Counted from the first letter of the stretch, positions 2,634 to 14,362 are shown. The stretch is 20,122 bases of DNA from a virus (IMGVR_UViG_2671181054_000001:1-20122), one strand, 5' to 3'. Notes: generated by a model not told the origin, from the sequence alone. Translations and numbers: made by a program.

Positions 2634-3377
2634 TTATTCTTGAGTAACACTTAAACTCATCTCATTGAATGCAGCCATCCTGTAACCTGCCGGTGTAACA
2701 CCAAAATAACTCCTGAATACGCTGATAAAATAAGATGTAAAATTATAGCCACACTGAGCAGCGATTCTGTTGATGGCGCAACGAGATTGATTCAACAGCA
2801 TTGCTGCCATTCTCATTCTCTCTGTAAGCAACAACTCACTGAAACAGGTGCCTTCTTCTTTCAGTCTTTTTTTTAACAAACTTTCACTGATACATAACCG
2901 CGAAGACACATCTCTCAGAGTCCAGTTTGCTGCAATGTCCGTACGAAACAATGCACTAAGCCTGTCACTAATATTGCCAATACACGCGGTCAGAAACGAC
3001 GAAAACATTTTCTCTGATGAGAAAAACGCCAGACACGAAAAGGAAAGCATTTCCGCTAAATTGTCCGTATGAATCTTTTCCTCACAAAGATAATCAATCA
3101 GGATGCCCATCAATTCTGCCTTGGGAAAACTCACGCAAAGATATCGTGGTATTTGCCGGACTAAAACTACATCCTGTTTTTCGTCTCCACACAACAGGTA
3201 ACGGATAATTGTCGATTCACTGAGACTTATTCGCCGAAAACATTCCGAAAAGGGCAATAACGATCCAGCTCCCCCCCTGACAAGAAGTGCACTACCACTT
3301 TCAAGAGAGAGCTCTTTTCCTTCAAAGAGCACAACAAACGGGGAATGAACAAAAACAACAGAACAGGCTTCATTCAT
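2634..3377 (-). CDS. AraC-family transcriptional regulator, AppY/EnvY-like (about 248 aa)
   Basis: C-terminal double HTH typical of AraC family (WTLRDVSSRLCISESLLKKRLKEEGTCFSELL...CGYNFTSYFISVFRSYFGVTPAGY). Start chosen at MNEACSVVF (AppY-like N-terminus as recalled) because the longer frame would run through the upstream terminator. Confidence 0.75.
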   Translation of the reverse strand: MNEACSVVFVHSPFVVLFEGKELSLESGSALLVRGGAGSLLPFSECFRRISLSESTIIRYLLCGDEKQDVVLVRQIPRYLCVSFPKAELMGILIDYLCEEKIHTDNLAEMLSFSCLAFFSSEKMFSSFLTACIGNISDRLSALFRTDIAANWTLRDVSSRLCISESLLKKRLKEEGTCFSELLLTERMRMAAMLLNQSRCAINRIAAQCGYNFTSYFISVFRSYFGVTPAGYRMAAFNEMSLSVTQE

Positions 3378-3495
3378 ATCAATTGCCCTGACATTACTGG
3401 TCACAAGATAAGTATATATCGATTTACAAAAATACAAGCCGAAAGACCAGTATTCGCAACCACCAGCACGTTTTATGTTCTCTGCCGTTTTTCGG

Positions 3496-3523
3496 ACATA
3501 AAAAACCCGCTCAATGGCGGGTT
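3496..3523 (-). terminator. Rho-independent terminator (minus strand) 85 nt downstream of Q stop; tR'-like
   Basis: Minus-strand RNA AACCCGC-CAUUGA-GCGGGUU followed by UUUAUG; 7-bp stem. Confidence 0.55.
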
Positions 3524-3606
3524 GTATCAAAGTTCATGCGCTTGGTTCACCTCGCGATACAGCTTTGCGAAGCTTAGCAAAATTGAAGCGGTTTATGCGT
3601 AAAAAA

Positions 3607-6207: not shown

Positions 6208-8190
6208 TTAAGTAATTTCAGAGGTATCTATCACTTTCTCAGGAGTTGTAGATAACAATTCTTTCATACGCTGATCTTCGGGAGCACGAGAAGACAGGTG
6301 TTCTAAAAACTCACGCCATTGACGCTTTGCATCAGACAGAAGGTCATCCCAAGTTAATGTATACATTTCTTGTTCTCTCAATGTTTTCAGTTTCATATTT
6401 AACGTTGCATTTCTCTTTAAAAAATCATCAGCAACTAGATAACCGGAAACTCGCTTGAATGGACTTCCTGTTGCAGAGTCTAAATAAACTCTGAAAGTAT
6501 TAACATACTCCTCAAAGCGATTGATGTGATCTTTATCTATTTTCAGCCCTGGCCTCATGAATTCAAGTACAAGCAAATGTTCACCACTTGAAAGAACTAA
6601 GTCAACCCTTCCTTTAAAGCTTGGATCGTGTTCAATGTCTGATTCTTTTGCTGCTTCTCTAGCGATATGCTGGACATTTTTCTCAATAGCATAAGTCTCC
6701 CATTTTGGAGCTATCAGCCAAGGATTCTTCGCAATATAGTCTCGAACAGCATTTTCTAATTCTTTAGTGCGTATTCTAGTCTCAAGACCACTTATAGTAT
6801 CAAGCTTAGCTTTAACTGATTCTGCTGTGTGTAAAGCCTGAATTGTATTTGCTTCGATCAATATCTCAAGCAATTTCGTTTCATCCATATCAGGAACGGA
6901 AGCAACGCTTCTTATAAGCTCTTTTAGACGCCCTCCCTCCCATGCAGTGAGGATAGAGTTGCCTATATGCCTAAATTGCTCTGCACCGATTTGTTGGATT
7001 GATGCAATTCGTTTCAAAGCCATTATAACCGTTTTTTTCTCTACACCTAGTTTATCTAGCCTACTTCTGAAATCATCAATTTTACTTTCAATCAGTTTGG
7101 TTTTTTCATCTGCCCGCCGATCTTTCCAGATTTTTAATAATTCGCGAACACGTTTCTGTCCCCACTCTTCTAATTTGGCAAGGTGGTGACTACTCCAATT
7201 CAATCTTTGTCGTTCAGTAGAAATCACATCATCATTAAACTCATCCAAATAATCAGCAATTACAGCCCCTGTCATATATTCAGGACCATTTTGACTTGGC
7301 AACCCTCCAGTCAAGTTAAACATAAACGGCCTTTGTGCTAATTTTTTGTGAGCGTAAATCGAGATACCTTGCAACTCATCATCCTTGATTGTTTCTTTTA
7401 AGAAAAACACTCTCCATTTTATCTCATAACCATCAACGATTTCTTTTCCATACCCCAAACTGTCAATCTCCGTAAGAGAATCAGGTTTTTCATCTACAGT
7501 ATAATCTTTTGGAAAACTATATTCTGCAGTGGCAAGAAAATTTTCGACTGGCATGGGGGTATTATTAATACGAACTAAAAATTCATCGCCGCCAGAATTG
7601 ATCGCAAACCTTCTCGCCATAGATGTAGCAAAAGAAGACTCATTTAACAATCTATTTATTTTCAATGACTTAAGTGTTACTGTTGTTCCATGATTTTCTT
7701 TTTCTAATTCTGAAGGGCCTGTGCGGAAGGTCACATCAATAGCCATACTTTCAGTTTTAACGTAGTCATCTGACGATCTAATCTTATTTATATCCAAAGT
7801 AAAACTAGTTTTTTCACCTGTTTCTTGGCTAGTAGTACAAATTTCTATAATCTCAGCAATACCAAAACCAGCAAACTTTCCGATACCTTTTCTTCCCATT
7901 AAGTCTCGATTGAATAATTTCGACTTCGCTACAGGATTATCTTTCCTTTTATCAAAACCAACCGTAAGAAATTTCTTTTGACATTCTTCAAATGTCATTC
8001 CAATACCATTGTCTTTTATAACAATAGTTCTATTTTCATGCGTGGGTAGTGTAATATTAACTTCGGTTGCATCCGCGTCCCAAGCATTAGAAACCATTTC
8101 AGCTATTGCTGCTGTTGGACTTTGATACATTTGAATACCTAAATGATCAATTATCCTACCATGAAAATTTAGAAATAGTTTATTATCCAT
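6208..8190 (-). CDS. GHKL (Bergerat-fold) ATPase-domain protein, 660 aa, MORC/MutL-like N-terminus with uncharacterised C-terminal region; candidate restriction/defence effector
   Basis: N-terminal motifs AIAEMVSNAWDADATEV (N-box, E-x3-N-A-x-D), IKDNGIGMT (D-x-G-x-G), GRKGIGKFAGFG (G-rich lid). Start ATG has GAGG 6 nt upstream and overlaps the MTase stop by 8 nt. Confidence 0.85.
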   Translation of the reverse strand: MDNKLFLNFHGRIIDHLGIQMYQSPTAAIAEMVSNAWDADATEVNITLPTHENRTIVIKDNGIGMTFEECQKKFLTVGFDKRKDNPVAKSKLFNRDLMGRKGIGKFAGFGIAEIIEICTTSQETGEKTSFTLDINKIRSSDDYVKTESMAIDVTFRTGPSELEKENHGTTVTLKSLKINRLLNESSFATSMARRFAINSGGDEFLVRINNTPMPVENFLATAEYSFPKDYTVDEKPDSLTEIDSLGYGKEIVDGYEIKWRVFFLKETIKDDELQGISIYAHKKLAQRPFMFNLTGGLPSQNGPEYMTGAVIADYLDEFNDDVISTERQRLNWSSHHLAKLEEWGQKRVRELLKIWKDRRADEKTKLIESKIDDFRSRLDKLGVEKKTVIMALKRIASIQQIGAEQFRHIGNSILTAWEGGRLKELIRSVASVPDMDETKLLEILIEANTIQALHTAESVKAKLDTISGLETRIRTKELENAVRDYIAKNPWLIAPKWETYAIEKNVQHIAREAAKESDIEHDPSFKGRVDLVLSSGEHLLVLEFMRPGLKIDKDHINRFEEYVNTFRVYLDSATGSPFKRVSGYLVADDFLKRNATLNMKLKTLREQEMYTLTWDDLLSDAKRQWREFLEHLSSRAPEDQRMKELLSTTPEKVIDTSEIT

Positions 8191-9232
8191 AATCCGCCTC
8201 GTTTTTAGTTATATGTTCTTTGATAAGTTCAGCATGACGCTTAATGAATTCAGGGGGCAATGCATTCCCTATCATCAAAGCAGCCTTGTCTTTACCAAAT
8301 TGAATAGGAAAATAGTAATCACTCGGAAAAGTTTGTAATAATGCAGCCTCTCGAAGAGTTATTGCTCTATCTTGTTCAGGATGTAAAAAACGACCTTTTG
8401 AAGGATTAGTACATCCACTCGTAATAGTTGGAGCTACATCATCCCACCTCATACGACCGTAAACATCGCGAAAACCATTTGGATATCGTTTATGACATGG
8501 CAGCCAATACTCGTAAGGAAGTTGAGAGCGGCTTCCCCCATCCTTAGGAATAAGACTTATAATTTTTTTAACCTTCTCAGTTCTTCTTTCTAATATATTG
8601 TGCAGCGGATCATTGCTATTTTCAGGTCGAGCCAAATGGCCTATTGCATCGCGCACAGTTATTAAATTACTATTTTTTTGAGCACGAGTAAGCTCTCCGT
8701 ATCGCGAAGCAAGTAGTACCATGCGCTTACGTCTTTGTGGCACACCAAATTTACTAGCATCTTCAATTAAAACTGAATTATCATCGATATGATAACCCAA
8801 TTTCTTAAGCTCCGAAGTAAACATGTTTATTCGTTCGTCAAATGCCAAAGCTGGTACATTTTCAACCATTACAACTTTTGGAAAAAAGACTTTAACAAAA
8901 TCTAAAAAATTAAAAATAAGTTCATTTCTCTCATCAAAGACAGCTACTGTTTTATTTTTTGTTCTTAACGAAGAAAATCCTTGACATGGTGGACAACCTG
9001 CCAACAAATCCAGTTCACCTTGCTGAATTTTTAATTGTTTCATTAATTCATCTGGTGATATATTTTTTATATCCCCATTTATTAAGTTAACATCCGGATG
9101 GTTGATTCTATAGGTTTCAGATACAATAGCTTCTTTTTCGATTGCTGATATGACATCAAAGCCAGCCATTTTTAGACCAACTGTCAAACCACCAGCGCCA
9201 CAAAAAAGATCAATTGCTTTCATTTTATGCAT
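8183..9232 (-). CDS. DNA (cytosine-5)-methyltransferase, Dcm-type (349 aa)
   Basis: Canonical m5C MTase motifs: I DLFCGAGG, IV GCPPCQGFS, VI MVENVPAL, VIII QRRKR, X GNALPP. Start could be M1 (9232) or M4 (9223). Confidence 0.9.
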   Translation of the reverse strand: MHKMKAIDLFCGAGGLTVGLKMAGFDVISAIEKEAIVSETYRINHPDVNLINGDIKNISPDELMKQLKIQQGELDLLAGCPPCQGFSSLRTKNKTVAVFDERNELIFNFLDFVKVFFPKVVMVENVPALAFDERINMFTSELKKLGYHIDDNSVLIEDASKFGVPQRRKRMVLLASRYGELTRAQKNSNLITVRDAIGHLARPENSNDPLHNILERRTEKVKKIISLIPKDGGSRSQLPYEYWLPCHKRYPNGFRDVYGRMRWDDVAPTITSGCTNPSKGRFLHPEQDRAITLREAALLQTFPSDYYFPIQFGKDKAALMIGNALPPEFIKRHAELIKEHITKNEADYG

Positions 9233-11600: not shown

Positions 11601-12389
11601 TTACCCCCTGAAGCCTGGCGGGATCGCACTGTCCGGCAACGAGACGGTGTTAACCTGTCTGAGCAACGTCTCAGGCCTAACACCTTTCGGCGCGAACAAG
11701 CCCTGGTATTCATTGGCGATGCTATGTCGAATCACCTGCTCAGGGGTAAAACCCTGCTGGCGGAATTTTTCCAGTTCCCGTATCGCCCCGTTAGCGCCCT
11801 GCTCCGTTCGAATCGGTTTTCGCAATGCCTGCCTGAACCGGACCCACTCATGCCAGAGTGTTTCCGGCAACCAATCGGGCAACTCAATAGCCTCCGGCTC
11901 GAATTTTTTAGATGCTCGTTTTTGGCGAGGGGGATTTAGGGGGAGATCAGTATTTATATCTTCCTCTTCCTCTTCCTCTGGTAACGCTTTTTGATCCGTT
12001 TGTGTAACGCTGGCAGCGTTACCTTTTCGTTTCAGTTTGCGTATTTTTGTAACCCTCTCGTTTGTAATCGCCCGTTTTTTAGAGCTTTTTCCGTTATGAC
12101 GTTCAAAGTTAGGTAGAGAAAGCCCACCGTTATTTTCGACCAGCCATCCAACCTGAATTAACGCATCAGCAAAACCAGCCATAAAAGTGATGCGATCTAT
12201 TGCACTTTTTGTAACGCCGCGAGCGTTACACTCTGCGTTACCGTCTATCATTTGTTGATCCGCCCATGCCCAGAAGCGAATGACTTTCCCTAATGCGGCA
12301 TCTGGATCAATATTCAGAATCTCAGCAAGCCTGAATATTTCCGGCTTATCCGGCGTAATAACCTCGAGCTTTATCCAGTTTGAAGCCAT
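11601..12389 (-). CDS. Replication initiation-module protein (YdaU/DUF1376-like), about 262 aa, with poly-Glu linker
   Basis: Start at MASNWIKLEV with GGTGA 7 nt upstream; directly precedes DnaC-like loader; contains internal palindromic repeats. Confidence 0.55.
   Translation of the reverse strand: MASNWIKLEVITPDKPEIFRLAEILNIDPDAALGKVIRFWAWADQQMIDGNAECNARGVTKSAIDRITFMAGFADALIQVGWLVENNGGLSLPNFERHNGKSSKKRAITNERVTKIRKLKRKGNAASVTQTDQKALPEEEEEEDINTDLPLNPPRQKRASKKFEPEAIELPDWLPETLWHEWVRFRQALRKPIRTEQGANGAIRELEKFRQQGFTPEQVIRHSIANEYQGLFAPKGVRPETLLRQVNTVSLPDSAIPPGFRG
12004..12022. repeat. 19-bp palindrome GTAACGC-N5-GCGTTAC, copy 1 (inside replication gene)
   Basis: gtaacgc tggca gcgttac; exact 7-bp arms. 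Confidence 0.8.
12211..12229. repeat. 19-bp palindrome GTAACGC-N5-GCGTTAC, copy 2 (inside replication gene), followed by an extra GCGTTAC at 12235-12241
   Basis: gtaacgc cgcga gcgttac; exact 7-bp arms. Confidence 0.8.
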
Positions 12390-12403: not shown

Positions 12404-12422
12404 GTAACGCTGTAAGCGTTAC
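12404..12422. repeat. 19-bp palindrome GTAACGC-N5-GCGTTAC, copy 3 (intergenic, overlapping RBS region of replication gene)
   Basis: gtaacgc tgtaa gcgttac; exact 7-bp arms. Confidence 0.8.
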
Positions 12423-12467: not shown

Positions 12468-12890
12468 TCAATGCACTACGACAGAATCGCCGGGCGACCC
12501 ACCGCCGCTGAAATATGCTTTACGGTAAACGGCCTGGACTGCATCATCATGCGCATCAATTGCCGTACTCAACGCTTCCTGCGCCGCCAGTAATGCACGG
12601 CGTTCCAGGGTATCGAAGATGCAGAGTCGGTGACGCAGCTCGCGCGGAAGAATTGCCAGAACCGCAGGGATCAGTTTCTGAATTTTTTCCCTTTGCGCTT
12701 TCGTTTCACCTTTCAACCAACGGTGATAGATATTCTGCTGATTGTTCCAGTCCTTGCCTGGTACCAGGGGCAATTCGCCGCCCCCCTGGCGCAGATATTC
12801 TTCAGTAATTGCGTTAGCAACCCACGCCTGCCCTTTTTCGGCTGCTAGGGCTAACAACACTGATTCGATGTGCTCATGCCTGATTTTCAT
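12468..12890 (-). CDS. YdaT-like (CII-like) early regulatory protein, 140 aa
   Basis: Second gene of the rightward early operon, ATGA-coupled to the Cro-like gene; size matches Rac YdaT as recalled. Confidence 0.55.
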   Translation of the reverse strand: MKIRHEHIESVLLALAAEKGQAWVANAITEEYLRQGGGELPLVPGKDWNNQQNIYHRWLKGETKAQREKIQKLIPAVLAILPRELRHRLCIFDTLERRALLAAQEALSTAIDAHDDAVQAVYRKAYFSGGGSPGDSVVVH

Positions 12891-13129
12891 GAATCAACCG
12901 CTCCTATGCTGTTTTCGCTATGCTTACCGTCTGGGGGGAATACATCGTCAAGTCCACAATGAGCACCAAGCCGATTAAGGGTGGAAACAATTTTTCTGCA
13001 CTCCTCTAGCCCAGGGGTACGAAAATTTGCTTCGTAATTTGCCAGTCGGCTTTGTATCCACCCTAGCTGAACAGCGAGTTGTCTTTGAGACAGACCAAGT
13101 TGTTTTCGATATGTTGAAATTTTGTTCAT
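12887..13129 (-). CDS. Cro/YdaS-like HTH (XRE-family) early regulator, 80 aa
   Basis: HTH LGLSQRQLAVQLGWIQSRLANYE; GGAGG 6 nt upstream of ATG; divergent from repressor gene. Confidence 0.7.
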   Translation of the reverse strand: MNKISTYRKQLGLSQRQLAVQLGWIQSRLANYEANFRTPGLEECRKIVSTLNRLGAHCGLDDVFPPDGKHSENSIGAVDS

Positions 13130-13225
13130 TAAAAACCTCCGACGACAATTTTAAACACACCTTGTGTTTTACGGTCAAGCTATTTTGTGTTTTATATAAA
13201 TCACGATTCGTGATACAAGGACGAA
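13130..13225. promoter_or_regulatory. Divergent promoter/operator region between Cro-like and repressor genes
   Basis: Palindrome AAACACA-cct-TGTGTTT at 13153-13169; 10-bp direct repeat TTGTGTTTTA at 13162-13171 and 13185-13194; palindrome ATCACGA-T-TCGTGAT at 13200-13214; minus-strand promoter candidate TTGACC - 17 bp - TTTAAA. Confidence 0.6.
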
Positions 13226-13645
13226 ATGGAAAAAGAAAACGAAAAAATTGCCGCTAGTAGGCTCAATGACAAAATTGCAATGCGTCTTAAAGAGCGCAGG
13301 CAGAAGCTTGGTTTATCTCAAGGAAAACTTGCTGAAATCTGCGGATGGACGCAATCGCGTATAGGTAACTATGAGGCGGGCAGCAGAAATGTTGGAGTGC
13401 ATGATGCTGTCGTCCTGGGAAAGGCGCTGGGCATATCTCCTCCTGAGCTCCTCTTTGGGGAAAAAGACTCTTCTGAATTGTGGTTAAATGAATCCCAACG
13501 AAAACTTCTTGAGTTGTTTAACCAGCTACCGGGCTCAGAACAACAACGAATGATTGAGCTATTTGAAGTCCGGCTAAAAGAAATCGACGAGTATGTAGAA
13601 AAATATTTGAGGGGCAGGCTTAAAGATACCCCCCCACCGGAGTAA
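13226..13645 (+). CDS. CI/RacR-like XRE-family HTH repressor without peptidase S24 domain (139 aa)
   Basis: HTH LGLSQGKLAEICGWTQSRIGNYEAG; AAGGA RBS; divergent from cro-like gene; followed by a strong terminator. Confidence 0.75.
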   Translation: MEKENEKIAASRLNDKIAMRLKERRQKLGLSQGKLAEICGWTQSRIGNYEAGSRNVGVHDAVVLGKALGISPPELLFGEKDSSELWLNESQRKLLELFNQLPGSEQQRMIELFEVRLKEIDEYVEKYLRGRLKDTPPPE

Positions 13646-13675
13646 TGATCTTGCTATCACAGTAATATGCCAATC

Positions 13676-13700
13676 AGCCCGCTATCAGCGGGTTTTTTTT
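13676..13700 (+). terminator. Rho-independent terminator after repressor gene
   Basis: cccgc-tatca-gcggg stem followed by T8. Confidence 0.7.
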
Positions 13701-13730
13701 GTACCATCATCATATGACACGCCACCATAA

Positions 13731-13773
13731 AAACACACTTTGTGTTGACTTACAAAAACCATTTGTGTTTAAT
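13731..13773 (+). promoter_or_regulatory. pL-like promoter with overlapping operator for the leftward early operon
   Basis: Palindrome AAACACA-ctt-TGTGTTg at 13731-13747; TTGACT (13745-13750) - 17 bp - TTTAAT (13768-13773); half-site TTGTGTTTAA overlaps the -10. Confidence 0.4.
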
Positions 13774-13947
13774 AAGCATATCCAAACAACGCCCCACCGG
13801 AGAACGGCAGGACAATACCTCGAGTTATCCAGCCACTGAACAGGGCTAAGTAGCCAGCCTGAGGCATACGAACATGACGGCAGTTGTTGATTGATACAAA
13901 GCGCAGTAGATAAAACGTTCCGCCACCCGGCGTTAAGGGGAAAAAAG

Positions 13948-14082
13948 ATGGTGCATTACGAAGTAGTTCAGTATTTGATGGATTGTTGCGGTATCACTTA
14001 CAGCCAGGCTGTGCAGGCTTTACGTAGCAACGACTGGGATCTCTGGCAAGCAGAAGCCTCTATCCGCAACAACAAGATGTGA
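13948..14082 (+). CDS. Small early protein, 44 aa (YdaG-like by size and position)
   Basis: ATG at 13948 preceded by AAGGGG; first gene downstream of pL-like promoter. Confidence 0.4.
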   Translation: MVHYEVVQYLMDCCGITYSQAVQALRSNDWDLWQAEASIRNNKM

Positions 14083-14092
14083 GGTGCGAAAA

Positions 14093-14362
14093 ATGCAAAA
14101 AATCGACCTCGGCAATAACGAATCCATGGTGTGCGGCGTGTTCCCCAACCAAGATGGAACGTTCACTGCTATGACGTATACCAAAAGCAAAACGTTTAAC
14201 GTCGCTGGCTGGAAAGAAATTCAGGTGAGTGATATGGATTTCGACGCAATCATGAAAAAGGCTTACGAAGAATACTTCGAAGGCCTTGCCGAAGGCGAAG
14301 AAGCTCTCAGCTTCGGTGAGTTTAAACAGGCGCTTTCCAGTTCGACAAAATCTATCGACTAA
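14093..14362 (+). CDS. Hypothetical acidic early protein, 89 aa
   Basis: ATG at 14093 preceded by GAGGTG; tightly follows the preceding gene. Confidence 0.5.
   Translation: MQKIDLGNNESMVCGVFPNQDGTFTAMTYTKSKTFNVAGWKEIQVSDMDFDAIMKKAYEEYFEGLAEGEEALSFGEFKQALSSSTKSID

What the first reader, a model, noticed from the sequence alone, without database searches (positions are those of the whole stretch)
13150..13775. Shared operator palindrome AAACACA-N3-TGTGTTT on both sides of the repressor gene (OR-like and OL-like sites)
The same palindrome occurs at 13153-13169 (between cro-like and repressor genes, inside a candidate minus-strand promoter) and at 13731-13747 (overlapping the -35 of a TTGACT-17-TTTAAT promoter pointing into the leftward operon). 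TTGTGTTT(T/A)A half-sites recur at 13185-13194 and 13763-13772. This matches lambdoid immunity logic in which one repressor controls both early promoters, and defines the likely immunity specificity of this prophage.
Basis: seen in the sequence. Interest (0 to 1): 0.45.

Follow-up and report, generated by a model that had tools for sequence, protein, structure and literature searches.

The report
Prophage repressor operators flanking its gene
The repeated palindromes are very probably the operator sites of an E. coli lambdoid prophage's lysis-lysogeny switch: a real and well-supported feature, but an ordinary one of a well-known kind.

Summary
The interpretation, one repressor controlling both divergent early promoters, is supported by comparative evidence and can be extended. 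The window is the early region of an E. coli Rac/Qin-type lambdoid prophage.

There are three 17-bp sites at OR, centred 13161, 13184 and 13207 (23-bp spacing). There are two sites at OL, centred 13739 and 13762. PR (minus strand) and PL (plus strand) are mirror-image modules: one site lies in the promoter spacer and runs into the -10, the other overlaps the -35. OR3 lies inside a likely leaderless PRM.

Across 76 distinct relatives with the same recognition helix, 74 carry the core motif on both sides of the gene. None of 16 relatives with other helices does. Half-sites are fixed while spacers and central triplets vary freely.

The repressor is a DicA homologue with no S24 protease domain. 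Its HTH domain and operator family are shared with the cleavable CI repressors of phages mEp213 and VT1-Sakai. Binding itself is not shown here. Verdict: new member of a known kind, low to moderate interest.

The parts
13153..13169 (.). OR1: AAACACAcctTGTGTTT, a perfect palindrome. It occupies the PR spacer and overlaps the PR -10.
   Evidence: Half-sites are invariant in 6 diverged loci and in 36 population haplotypes.
13176..13192 (.). OR2: CAAGCTAtttTGTGTTT. Only the right half is good. The left half overlaps the PR -35 and the right half abuts the PRM -35. Its centre is at -42 from the A of the repressor ATG.
   Evidence: The right half is conserved.
13199..13215 (.). OR3: AATCACGattCGTGATA (perfect 15-bp palindrome at 13200-13214). 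It lies in the PRM spacer and overlaps the extended -10.
   Evidence: The CAC-N5-GTG core at -19 from the ATG is conserved in nearly all same-family loci.
13150..13178 (-). PR-like promoter for the cro-like operon: TTGACC, 17 nt, TTTAAA. GGAGG and the ATG at 13129 lie downstream.
   Evidence: The -35 is invariant. It mirrors PL at 33/61 identity, against a random mean of 15.4 +/- 3.5.
13191..13226 (+). PRM-like promoter: TTTATA, 17 nt, TG-a-TACAAG, then 6 nt to the ATG. The predicted transcript is leaderless and starts at or near 13226.
   Evidence: A TGnTAnAAn element 6-7 nt before the ATG recurs in relatives of several operator classes. A leaderless PRM was shown by 5' RACE in the analogous CP-933P system (PMC8630535). 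The promoter is inferred here, not mapped.
13226..13645 (+). Repressor gene, 139 aa: an HTH_3 domain plus a C-terminal helical hairpin, with no S24 protease domain. It is a DicA homologue.
12887..13129 (-). Cro-like gene, 80 aa, HTH_3. Its recognition helix GWIQSRLANYEA is nearly identical to the repressor's GWTQSRIGNYEA.
13676..13700 (+). Intrinsic terminator after the repressor gene. It insulates PRM transcription from PL.
   Evidence: An equivalent hairpin plus T-run is present in relatives.
13731..13747 (.). OL2: AAACACActtTGTGTTG. Its last 3 bases are the first 3 of the PL -35.
   Evidence: Invariant and nearly so.
13754..13770 (.). OL1: AAAAACCattTGTGTTT. It lies in the PL spacer, and its last 3 bases are the first 3 of the -10.
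   Evidence: The right half is conserved and the left half is variable.
13745..13773 (+). PL-like promoter, TTGACT, 17 nt, TTTAAT, reading into the early-left operon and on to xis and int.
   Evidence: TTGAC(A/T), 17 nt, (T/C)TTAA(N) is found 100-150 nt after the repressor stop codon in relatives of all operator classes. The homologous dicBp is an experimentally verified DicA-repressed promoter (PMC10448788).

Best explanation
These are the operators of a lambda-style bistable immunity switch in an E. coli Rac/Qin-type lambdoid prophage. Dimers of the 139-aa DicA-family repressor recognise 17-bp sites of the form A-A-(A/T)-C-A-C-(A/G) N3 (T/C)-G-T-G-(A/T)-T-T. The 80-aa Cro-like protein, which has almost the same recognition helix, probably recognises them too.

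At OR, three sites 23 bp apart cover two divergent promoters. OR1 and OR2 sit on the spacer/-10 and on the -35 of PR, so repressor bound there blocks cro, ydaT and the replication genes. OR2 is centred at -42 of PRM, the position from which lambda CI activates its own promoter. OR3 sits inside PRM, so its occupation, by excess repressor or preferentially by Cro, shuts off repressor synthesis.

At OL, two sites cover the -35 and the spacer/-10 of PL. The same repressor therefore silences the leftward operon (exo, xis, int).

The repressor mRNA is probably leaderless. The repressor has no S24 autocleavage domain, so induction is probably not by RecA-stimulated cleavage. An antirepressor or a stochastic or environmental switch is more likely, as for DicA.

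Shown here: the sites, their geometry, their conservation and their co-variation with the HTH. Inferred: binding, order of occupancy, activation of PRM, the transcription start sites and the induction route.
For: - **Sites and geometry.**
- **Gene context.** It matches lambda's early region.
- **Mirror promoters.** PL(+) and PR(-) align as mirror modules, 33/61 identical. Random pairs average 15.4 +/- 3.5 with a maximum of 29 in 20,000.
- **Phylogenetic footprint, 6 loci with 55-86% identical repressors.** 24/35 half-site columns are invariant against 9/61 elsewhere in the OR intergenic region (p=1.4e-7). At OL it is 17/28 against 10/58 (p=8e-5).
- **Population footprint, 36 OR and 47 OL haplotypes.** 2/35 half-site positions vary against 33/61 elsewhere (p=6e-7). 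At OL it is 7/21 against 50/59 (p=2e-5). Central triplets and spacers are hypervariable.
- **Co-variation with the helix.** AACAC-N5-GTGTT (up to 1 mismatch) lies on both sides of the gene in 74/76 distinct haplotypes with the GW(T/A/V)QSRIGNYE helix and in 0/16 with other helices. There are no hits inside the gene and 1 in about 172 kb of flanks.
- **Other palindromes with other helices.** Relatives with other HTH types carry TTCAC-N5-GTGAA, TAAACA-N3-TGTTTA or TAAAsC-N3-GsTTTA, again on both sides, and the Cro HTH type switches with them.
- **Cross-match.** The OR palindrome matches its own OL at 2.3 mismatches of 14, against 4.9 for other classes (p=2.5e-7).
- **Shared helix.** Repressor and Cro are 45% identical over the HTH, with the same recognition helix.
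- **DicA.** It is a full-length homologue (30% identity, E=2e-15). It is reported to repress dicCp and dicBp through three operators at each and to lack RecA cleavage (PMC10448788). Qin shows the same layout in sequence.
- **Related cleavable CIs.** S24-type CI of mEp213 and VT1-Sakai have 51-59% identical HTH domains and the same operator family at the same promoter positions. The VT1-Sakai record annotates them as putative operators.
- **CP-933P.** Footprints at OR, repression of PL by both regulators and a leaderless PRM are shown experimentally in that analogous YdaS/YdaT-type switch (PMC8630535).
Against: - No binding, transcription-start or expression data exist for this sequence. Everything functional is inferred from comparison and homology.
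- OR2 and OL1 are poor palindromes. Their left halves match 3/7 and 5/7, so they may be weak, cooperativity-dependent or half-sites only.
- There is no third OL site in this window, although some relatives have a third AAACACA half-site.
- Part of the half-site conservation could come from overlap with the promoter hexamers.
- The simple promoter scanner called none of the three promoters. Their -10 hexamers lack the A at position 2 that it requires.
- AAGGA lies 5 nt upstream of the ATG and could serve as a Shine-Dalgarno sequence if transcription started further upstream, for example from TATATAA at 13193-99. The leaderless model is therefore not proven here.
- The induction route is unknown. 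The window has no LexA box and no Rem homologue.
Confidence: 0.85

Rival explanations
1. The two HTH proteins divide the sites between them. The AAACACA/TGTGTTT sites (OR1, OR2, OL1, OL2) are repressor-only, and the distinct CACG/CGTG palindrome (OR3) is a Cro-only or otherwise separate site. On this reading they do not share one operator set with opposite preferences.
For: - OR3 differs at 2 of 7 half-site positions (AATCACG against AAACACA) and is the only site with a perfect 15-bp palindrome.
- In relatives OR3 keeps G at half-site position 7 far more consistently than OR1 does.
- In CP-933P, YdaS binds the PRM side first and PaaR2 represses PR more strongly.
Against: - The two proteins have almost the same recognition helix.
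- OR3 has the same 7-N3-7 geometry and sits exactly 23 bp from OR2.
- In mEp213 and VT1-Sakai the AATCAC-type and AAACAC/ACACAC-type half-sites are mixed among the sites.
- In CP-933P the footprints of the two proteins overlap.
Confidence: 0.12
2. The sites are bound as proposed, but the element is no longer a phage immunity switch. It is a cryptic-prophage silencing module, like Qin DicA or Rac RacR, whose present role is to keep toxic early genes off.
For: - The closest characterised homologue, DicA, works in a defective prophage.
- No isolated phage in the phage collection carries this exact repressor; the best is 67% identical.
- The repressor lacks an SOS-cleavable domain.
Against: - The 20-kb window holds an apparently intact early region: int, xis, an exoVIII-like gene, cro, a CII-like gene, O-like and DnaC-like genes and a Q-like gene.
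- The same immunity region occurs in 40-60 kb viral contigs.
- Strong purifying selection acts on all five sites across dozens of haplotypes.
- This rival concerns biological role, not the operator assignment.
Confidence: 0.3
3. The repeats are not repressor operators. They would be host-factor sites or plain promoter architecture duplicated between two homologous promoters.
For: - PL and PR are clearly homologous modules, so shared sequence could reflect common descent.
- Several half-site bases overlap the -35 and -10 hexamers.
Against: - Conservation is dyad-symmetric and strongest in spacer positions that RNA polymerase does not read. The bases between sites vary freely.
- OR3 is not part of PR or PL.
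- The motif switches with the phage HTH type across relatives, which a host factor would not do.
- The half-site order CAC...GTG is the reverse of the CRP site TGTGA-N6-TCACA (general knowledge). No LexA-type box is present.
Confidence: 0.03

Closest known systems
Qin cryptic prophage DicA / DicC / dicBp (E. coli K-12)
   Same: - DicA is a full-length homologue of the repressor: 30% identity over 125 aa covering the HTH and the C-terminal helical domain.
- The layout is the same: a divergent cro-like gene, operators in the dicA-dicC intergenic region and again at the promoter downstream of dicA, and a DUF1391 gene first in the leftward operon.
- It has no RecA-cleavage site, is not mitomycin-inducible and behaves as a bistable switch (PMC10448788).
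   Different: - The operator sequence is different, TTAGC-type palindromes, so the specificity differs.
- DicC is not detectably similar to this Cro-like protein.
- Qin uses the antirepressor Rem, which has no homologue in this window.
- Qin is defective, whereas this early region looks intact.
Phage lambda OR/OL with CI and Cro
   Same: - Divergent PR and PRM with three 17-bp sites at 23-24 bp spacing.
- OR2 centred at -42 of PRM and OR3 inside PRM.
- OL sites over PL on the far side of the repressor gene.
- PL operon ending in xis and int.
- Leaderless repressor mRNA (shown in lambda, inferred here).
   Different: - The repressor has no S24 autocleavage domain.
- Only two recognisable OL sites.
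- OL-OR distance about 580 bp rather than about 2.4 kb.
- The CII role is taken by a YdaT-family protein.
- No N gene was recognised in the window.
CP-933P PaaR2 / YdaS / YdaT switch (E. coli O157:H7; PMC8630535, PMC9986795)
   Same: - The same gene order and logic, with experimental support there: footprints of both regulators over OR, a PL-like promoter repressed by both, a leaderless PRM transcript and a non-cleavable repressor.
- The YdaT protein is homologous.
- The YdaT-box is 17/18 identical.
   Different: - PaaR2 has an unrelated N-terminal sequence (MQKKEIRRLRLKEWF...), so it is an analogue of this repressor, not a homologue.
- Its operators differ (consensus GTTTAGTAA, four inverted repeats).
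- The CP-933P repressor operon carries a ParE2/PaaA2 toxin-antitoxin pair, which is absent here.
CI operators of phages mEp213 and VT1-Sakai (S24-type CI)
   Same: - The HTH domain is 51-59% identical, with the same or a similar recognition helix.
- The operator family is the same, in the same promoter positions. Examples: mEp213 AAACACAtatTGTGATT and AATCACAtttCGTGTTG(ACA); VT1-Sakai ACACACAattTGTGATT and AATCACGttgCGTGTTA.
   Different: - Those repressors carry a LexA-like C-terminal protease domain, and the phages have N/nut antitermination.
- The VT1-Sakai operators are annotated as 'putative' only. I found no binding study in the searchable literature.

Membership tests
Lambdoid immunity region (CI/Cro switch with OR and OL) | Divergent repressor and cro genes separated by a short intergenic region that holds both promoters | tested here: met
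   The intergenic region is 96 bp, between 13129 and 13226. PR and PRM candidates lie back to back.
Lambdoid immunity region (CI/Cro switch with OR and OL) | Multiple (typically three) about 17-bp dyad-symmetric operators at about 23-24 bp spacing at OR | tested here: met
   Centres at 13161, 13184 and 13207. OR2 is only half-symmetric.
Lambdoid immunity region (CI/Cro switch with OR and OL) | Operators of the same sequence family over a second promoter (PL) on the other side of the repressor gene, reading away from it | tested here: met
   OL2 at 13731-47 and OL1 at 13754-70 lie over TTGACT-17-TTTAAT. There are two sites, not three. The arrangement is conserved in 74/76 same-helix relatives.
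Lambdoid immunity region (CI/Cro switch with OR and OL) | Repressor and Cro physically bind the same operators with opposite preference | not testable with these tools
   The only support is indirect: near-identical recognition helices and co-variation.
LexA-like (S24) CI repressors | C-terminal S24 peptidase domain with an Ala-Gly cleavage site and a Ser/Lys dyad | tested here: not met
   Only HTH families hit in Pfam. The protein is 139 aa, and the model shows a C-terminal helical hairpin. It is therefore not filed in this family.
DicA-type non-cleavable prophage repressors | Full-length homology to DicA: an N-terminal HTH_3 domain plus a roughly 50-aa C-terminal helical domain (LLELFxxLPxSEQ motif) | tested here: met
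   BLASTP gives 30% identity over residues 14-131, E=2e-15. The C-terminal motif is conserved in 46 relatives.
DicA-type non-cleavable prophage repressors | Inactivation by an antirepressor rather than by RecA-stimulated cleavage | tested here: inconclusive
   The window has no Rem homologue and no LexA box. Only 20 kb of the prophage is available.
YdaS/YdaT-type (Rac, CP-933P) early-right operon | A YdaT-family CII analogue downstream of cro, with a TTGATT-N6-AATCAA box at its start codon | tested here: met
   PF06254 hit and a match to 8bt1. TTGATTCATGAAAATCAG lies at 12880-12897(-), across the ATG, against CP-933P TTGATTCATGAAAATCAA.

The most novel reading that the evidence does not exclude
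A non-cleavable DicA-type repressor and the SOS-cleavable CI repressors of phages such as mEp213, ECP1, mEpX1 and VT1-Sakai (an Stx1 phage) share one DNA-binding domain lineage and one operator family. The resident prophage's repressor could therefore cross-repress those phages. That would give the host SOS-proof superinfection immunity, or would damp induction of a co-resident Stx-type prophage. It would be a case of immunity specificity moved between repressor architectures by domain shuffling.
Probability: 0.2. Interest if true: 0.55.

Novelty: new member of a known kind. Interest (0 to 1): 0.25.

Why it matters
This defines the immunity specificity (operator family and recognition helix) of a prophage lineage found in about 150 complete E. 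coli genomes, with close relatives in Salmonella. It gives a clean, testable map of its genetic switch: three OR sites, two OL sites, three promoters and a probably leaderless repressor mRNA. More broadly, it shows one operator and HTH specificity attached to two different repressor architectures, one cleavable and one not. That bears on how prophages in polylysogens may cross-regulate each other. None of this is surprising to a phage geneticist.

Tried and rejected
- **Mirror alignments.** My first two scripted mirror alignments of PL and PR were one base out of register and gave meaningless identities.
- **Rfam.** Nothing on the whole window at gathering threshold, nor on 13700-14000 at E<=1.
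- **Leader downstream of PL.** I tested whether the conserved block is an HK022-type put RNA. It has no blastn similarity to HK022. RNAalifold gives a weak fold with 1 compensatory pair of 14. Its function is left open.
- **LexA boxes.** Only one-mismatch chance-level matches, 8 found against 5.7 expected.
- **Rem antirepressor.** No homologue in the window.
- **RacR homology.** None.
- **DicC homology of the Cro-like protein.** None.
- **PaaR2 homology.** Its N-terminus is unrelated, so it is an analogue only.
- **Literature for this exact operator or for mEp213 / H-19B operators.** Nothing usable in the searchable library.
- **CRP-like site.** Considered and rejected, because the half-site order is reversed (general knowledge).
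- **OL-OR helical phasing as evidence for looping.** The distance is 578 bp here but 547 and 585 bp by my own arithmetic from the coordinates for two relatives. It is not conserved, so I did not use it.
- **Fold search of the C-terminal hairpin.** No convincing PDB match beyond the HTH domain.

Full report
**1. Observation**

The sequence is as described. AAACACAcctTGTGTTT lies at 13153-13169 and is a perfect 7-N3-7 palindrome. AAACACActtTGTGTTG lies at 13731-13747. TTGTGTTTTA (13185-94) and TTGTGTTTAA (13763-72) are present.

A search for AAACACANNNTGTGTT with up to two mismatches finds three places in the 20-kb window. All lie in these two intergenic regions. That is 6 strand-hits against 0.79 expected, and 1 of 100 shuffles reached 6. 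The bare heptamer TTGTGTT is not enriched over the window as a whole. The signal is in the dyad arrangement and the location, not the word count.

**2. Context**

The window is the early region of an E. coli lambdoid prophage of the Rac/Qin type.

- **Plus strand:** a 139-aa HTH_3 protein (13226-13645), an intrinsic terminator (13676-13700), small ORFs (UBA-like, DUF1391/YdaF), an 811-aa exonuclease VIII-like protein, xis and int.
- **Minus strand:** an 80-aa HTH_3 cro-like gene (12887-13129), a YdaT-family (CII-like) gene, O-like and DnaC-like replication genes, Ren-like and DUF1627 genes, a methylase, an ATPase and a Q-like gene.

Near-identical DNA (at least 80% coverage of 12850-14100) is present in 153 of 5,426 complete E. 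coli genomes. No isolated phage in the phage collection carries it.

**3. Anatomy, extended**

Reading both strands gives three promoters.

| Promoter | Strand | -35 | Spacer | -10 |
|---|---|---|---|---|
| PR-like | - | TTGACC (13178->13173) | 17 nt | TTTAAA (13155->13150) |
| PL-like | + | TTGACT (13745-50) | 17 nt | TTTAAT (13768-73) |
| PRM-like | + | TTTATA (13191-96) | 17 nt | TG-a-TACAAG (13211-19) |

PL(+) and PR(-) align as mirror images. They share 33 of 61 positions, against 15.4 +/- 3.5 for random pairs and a maximum of 29 in 20,000. In each module one 17-mer fills the spacer and runs into the -10 (OR1, OL1), and a second overlaps the -35 (OR2, OL2).

A third OR site, AATCACGattCGTGATA (13199-13215), was not reported. 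It contains one of only three perfect 7-N1-7 palindromes in the window. It has the same 7-N3-7 geometry as the other sites. The three OR centres (13161, 13184, 13207) are exactly 23 bp apart.

OR3 lies in the spacer of the PRM candidate, which ends 6 nt before the ATG. On that reading the repressor mRNA is leaderless, OR2 is centred at -42 and OR3 at -19. This is the geometry of lambda OR2 and OR3 relative to PRM (established knowledge).

**4. Comparative test**

Repressor homologues fall into tiers. I fetched 20 genome loci, 80 viral contigs and targeted loci from Salmonella, E. coli and Klebsiella.

- **(a) Footprint across species.** In six loci with 55-86% identical repressors, the invariant intergenic columns are the half-sites, the -35 and -10 elements and the start codons. 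Central triplets and inter-site spacers differ. At OR, 24/35 half-site columns are invariant against 9/61 elsewhere (p=1.4e-7). At OL the figures are 17/28 against 10/58 (p=8e-5).
- **(b) Footprint within populations.** Among 36 OR and 47 OL haplotypes attached to 86-100% identical repressors, 2/35 half-site positions vary against 33/61 elsewhere (p=6e-7). At OL it is 7/21 against 50/59 (p=2e-5).
- **(c) Association with the recognition helix.** AACAC-N5-GTGTT (up to 1 mismatch) occurs on both sides of the gene in 74 of 76 distinct haplotypes whose repressor has GW(T/A/V)QSRIGNYE. It does so in none of 16 with other helices. There are no hits inside the gene and one in about 172 kb of flanking DNA.
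- **(d) Other helices, other palindromes.** These loci carry different palindromes, again on both sides and at the same promoter positions: TTCAC-N5-GTGAA with GASRVANYE, AGACAC-N5-GTGTC with ASRVGNYE, and TAAACA-N3-TGTTTA or TAAAsC-N3-GsTTTA with the GV(T/S)PQ(A/S)VN(G/N)WF class. The Cro-like protein's HTH type switches in step.
- **(e) Cross-match.** A blind cross-match of each locus's best OR palindrome against OL regions gives 2.3 mismatches of 14 for the locus's own OL and 4.9 for other classes (p=2.5e-7). Shuffled OL regions reach 2 or fewer mismatches in 0.03% of trials.

**5. The proteins**

The repressor and the Cro-like protein are 45% identical across the HTH, with recognition helices GWTQSRIGNYEA and GWIQSRLANYEA. 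That fits two proteins competing for one operator set.

The repressor has no S24 domain. A confident model (mean pLDDT 87.6) shows a 434/P22-C2/C.AhdI-like HTH domain and a C-terminal helical hairpin (residues 89-133) with no good PDB match. I infer, but have not shown, that the hairpin mediates oligomerisation.

The repressor is a full-length homologue of DicA (30% identity, E=2e-15) and is unrelated to RacR. PaaR2 of CP-933P has an unrelated N-terminus and is a functional analogue only.

**6. Known systems**

- **DicA.** The literature states that the dicA-dicC and dicA-dicBp intergenic regions each hold three lambda-like operators. DicA represses dicBp about 22-fold, lacks the RecA cleavage site, is not mitomycin-inducible, is antagonised by the antirepressor Rem, and forms a DicC-dependent bistable switch (PMC10448788). 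The Qin sequence shows the same layout with TTAGC-type palindromes.
- **CP-933P.** PaaR2 and YdaS footprint across OR, both repress a PL-like promoter, low PaaR2 activates PRM, and paaR2 mRNA is leaderless by 5' RACE (PMC8630535).
- **mEp213, ECP1, mEpX1 and VT1-Sakai.** The HTH domain alone is 51-59% identical to the N-terminal domains of the S24-type CI repressors of these phages. mEp213 has the same operator family at OR and OL. The VT1-Sakai record annotates three 17-bp 'putative operators' (ACACACAattTGTGATT, AACCTCAattCGTGTAC, AATCACGttgCGTGTTA) at positions equivalent to OR1-OR3 here. The operator family is therefore already recognised, at the level of annotation, in a related phage.

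**7. Mechanism and its status**

Shown by sequence and comparison: five sites in two mirror-image promoter modules, under purifying selection, co-varying with the HTH of the two regulators.

Inferred by homology and analogy:
- The repressor at OR1/OR2 and at OL1/OL2 occludes PR and PL.
- OR2 at -42 may activate PRM.
- OR3 occupancy, by excess repressor or by Cro, shuts PRM.
- The repressor mRNA is leaderless.
- Induction is not by RecA cleavage.

Not resolved: which protein prefers which site, whether OL and OR loop together, and how the prophage is induced. The window has no LexA box and no Rem homologue.

**8. Verdict**

This is an ordinary lambdoid immunity region: a new member (a distinct operator and repressor specificity) of the known DicA-type, non-cleavable branch. 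Its operator family is shared with some cleavable CI repressors. Interest is low to moderate. The only mildly novel angle is possible cross-immunity between these two repressor architectures, which is untested.

Noticed in passing
window 12880-12897 (minus strand): A YdaT-box, TTGATTCATGAAAATCAG, spans the start codon of the YdaT-like gene and the end of the cro-like gene. It is 17/18 identical to the experimentally footprinted CP-933P site TTGATTCATGAAAATCAA and close to the Rac site ATGATT-N6-AATCAA. The CII-like layer of the switch, and probably a PRE-like promoter, therefore seems conserved.
   Followed up: partly
window 12005-12021, 12212-12228, 12405-12421: Three perfect TAACGC-N5-GCGTTA palindromes about 200 bp apart lie inside the O-like (YdaU-type) replication gene. 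Expected 0.02 by chance; 0 of 100 shuffles reached even 3. They are unlike the operators and unlike the YdaT-box. They may be origin or initiator-binding sites.
   Followed up: partly
window ~13800-13935; relatives L001-L015, L026 (first ~110 nt after the PL-like promoter): A strongly conserved leader block (...GGCAGGACGCCCACGAAGTAGCTGCCGGCGGCATACGAA...GCGCAGCAGG...AACGTTCCGCC...) is shared by loci with entirely different immunity regions. The window and Salmonella carry a variant with an insertion. It has no Rfam hit, no HK022 put similarity and almost no covariation. Its function is unknown; it could be an antitermination or processing signal.
   Followed up: partly
window 13226-13645 compared with phages mEp213, ECP1, mEpX1 and VT1-Sakai (L111, L112): The repressor's HTH domain (residues 12-79) is 51-59% identical to the N-terminal domains of S24-type CI repressors, while its C-terminal half is DicA-like. 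This looks like domain shuffling between cleavable and non-cleavable repressor architectures that keeps the operator family.
   Followed up: partly
window 6208-9232 (minus strand): A 660-aa HATPase_c_3 protein (PHROG 6203, function unknown) lies next to a C-5 cytosine DNA methylase, between the replication genes and the Q-like gene. This may be a moron or defence island.
   Followed up: no
window 2634-3530 (minus strand): An AraC-family regulator gene (HTH_18/HTH_AraC) lies downstream of the Q-like antiterminator gene. It is probably prophage cargo.
   Followed up: no
IMG/VR loci L031-L097 (OL and OR spacers): Inter-operator spacers and central triplets are unusually polymorphic among prophages whose repressors are 97-100% identical: 33 distinct OL haplotypes in 41 loci. 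This suggests fast turnover or recombination in the non-contacted bases.
   Followed up: partly
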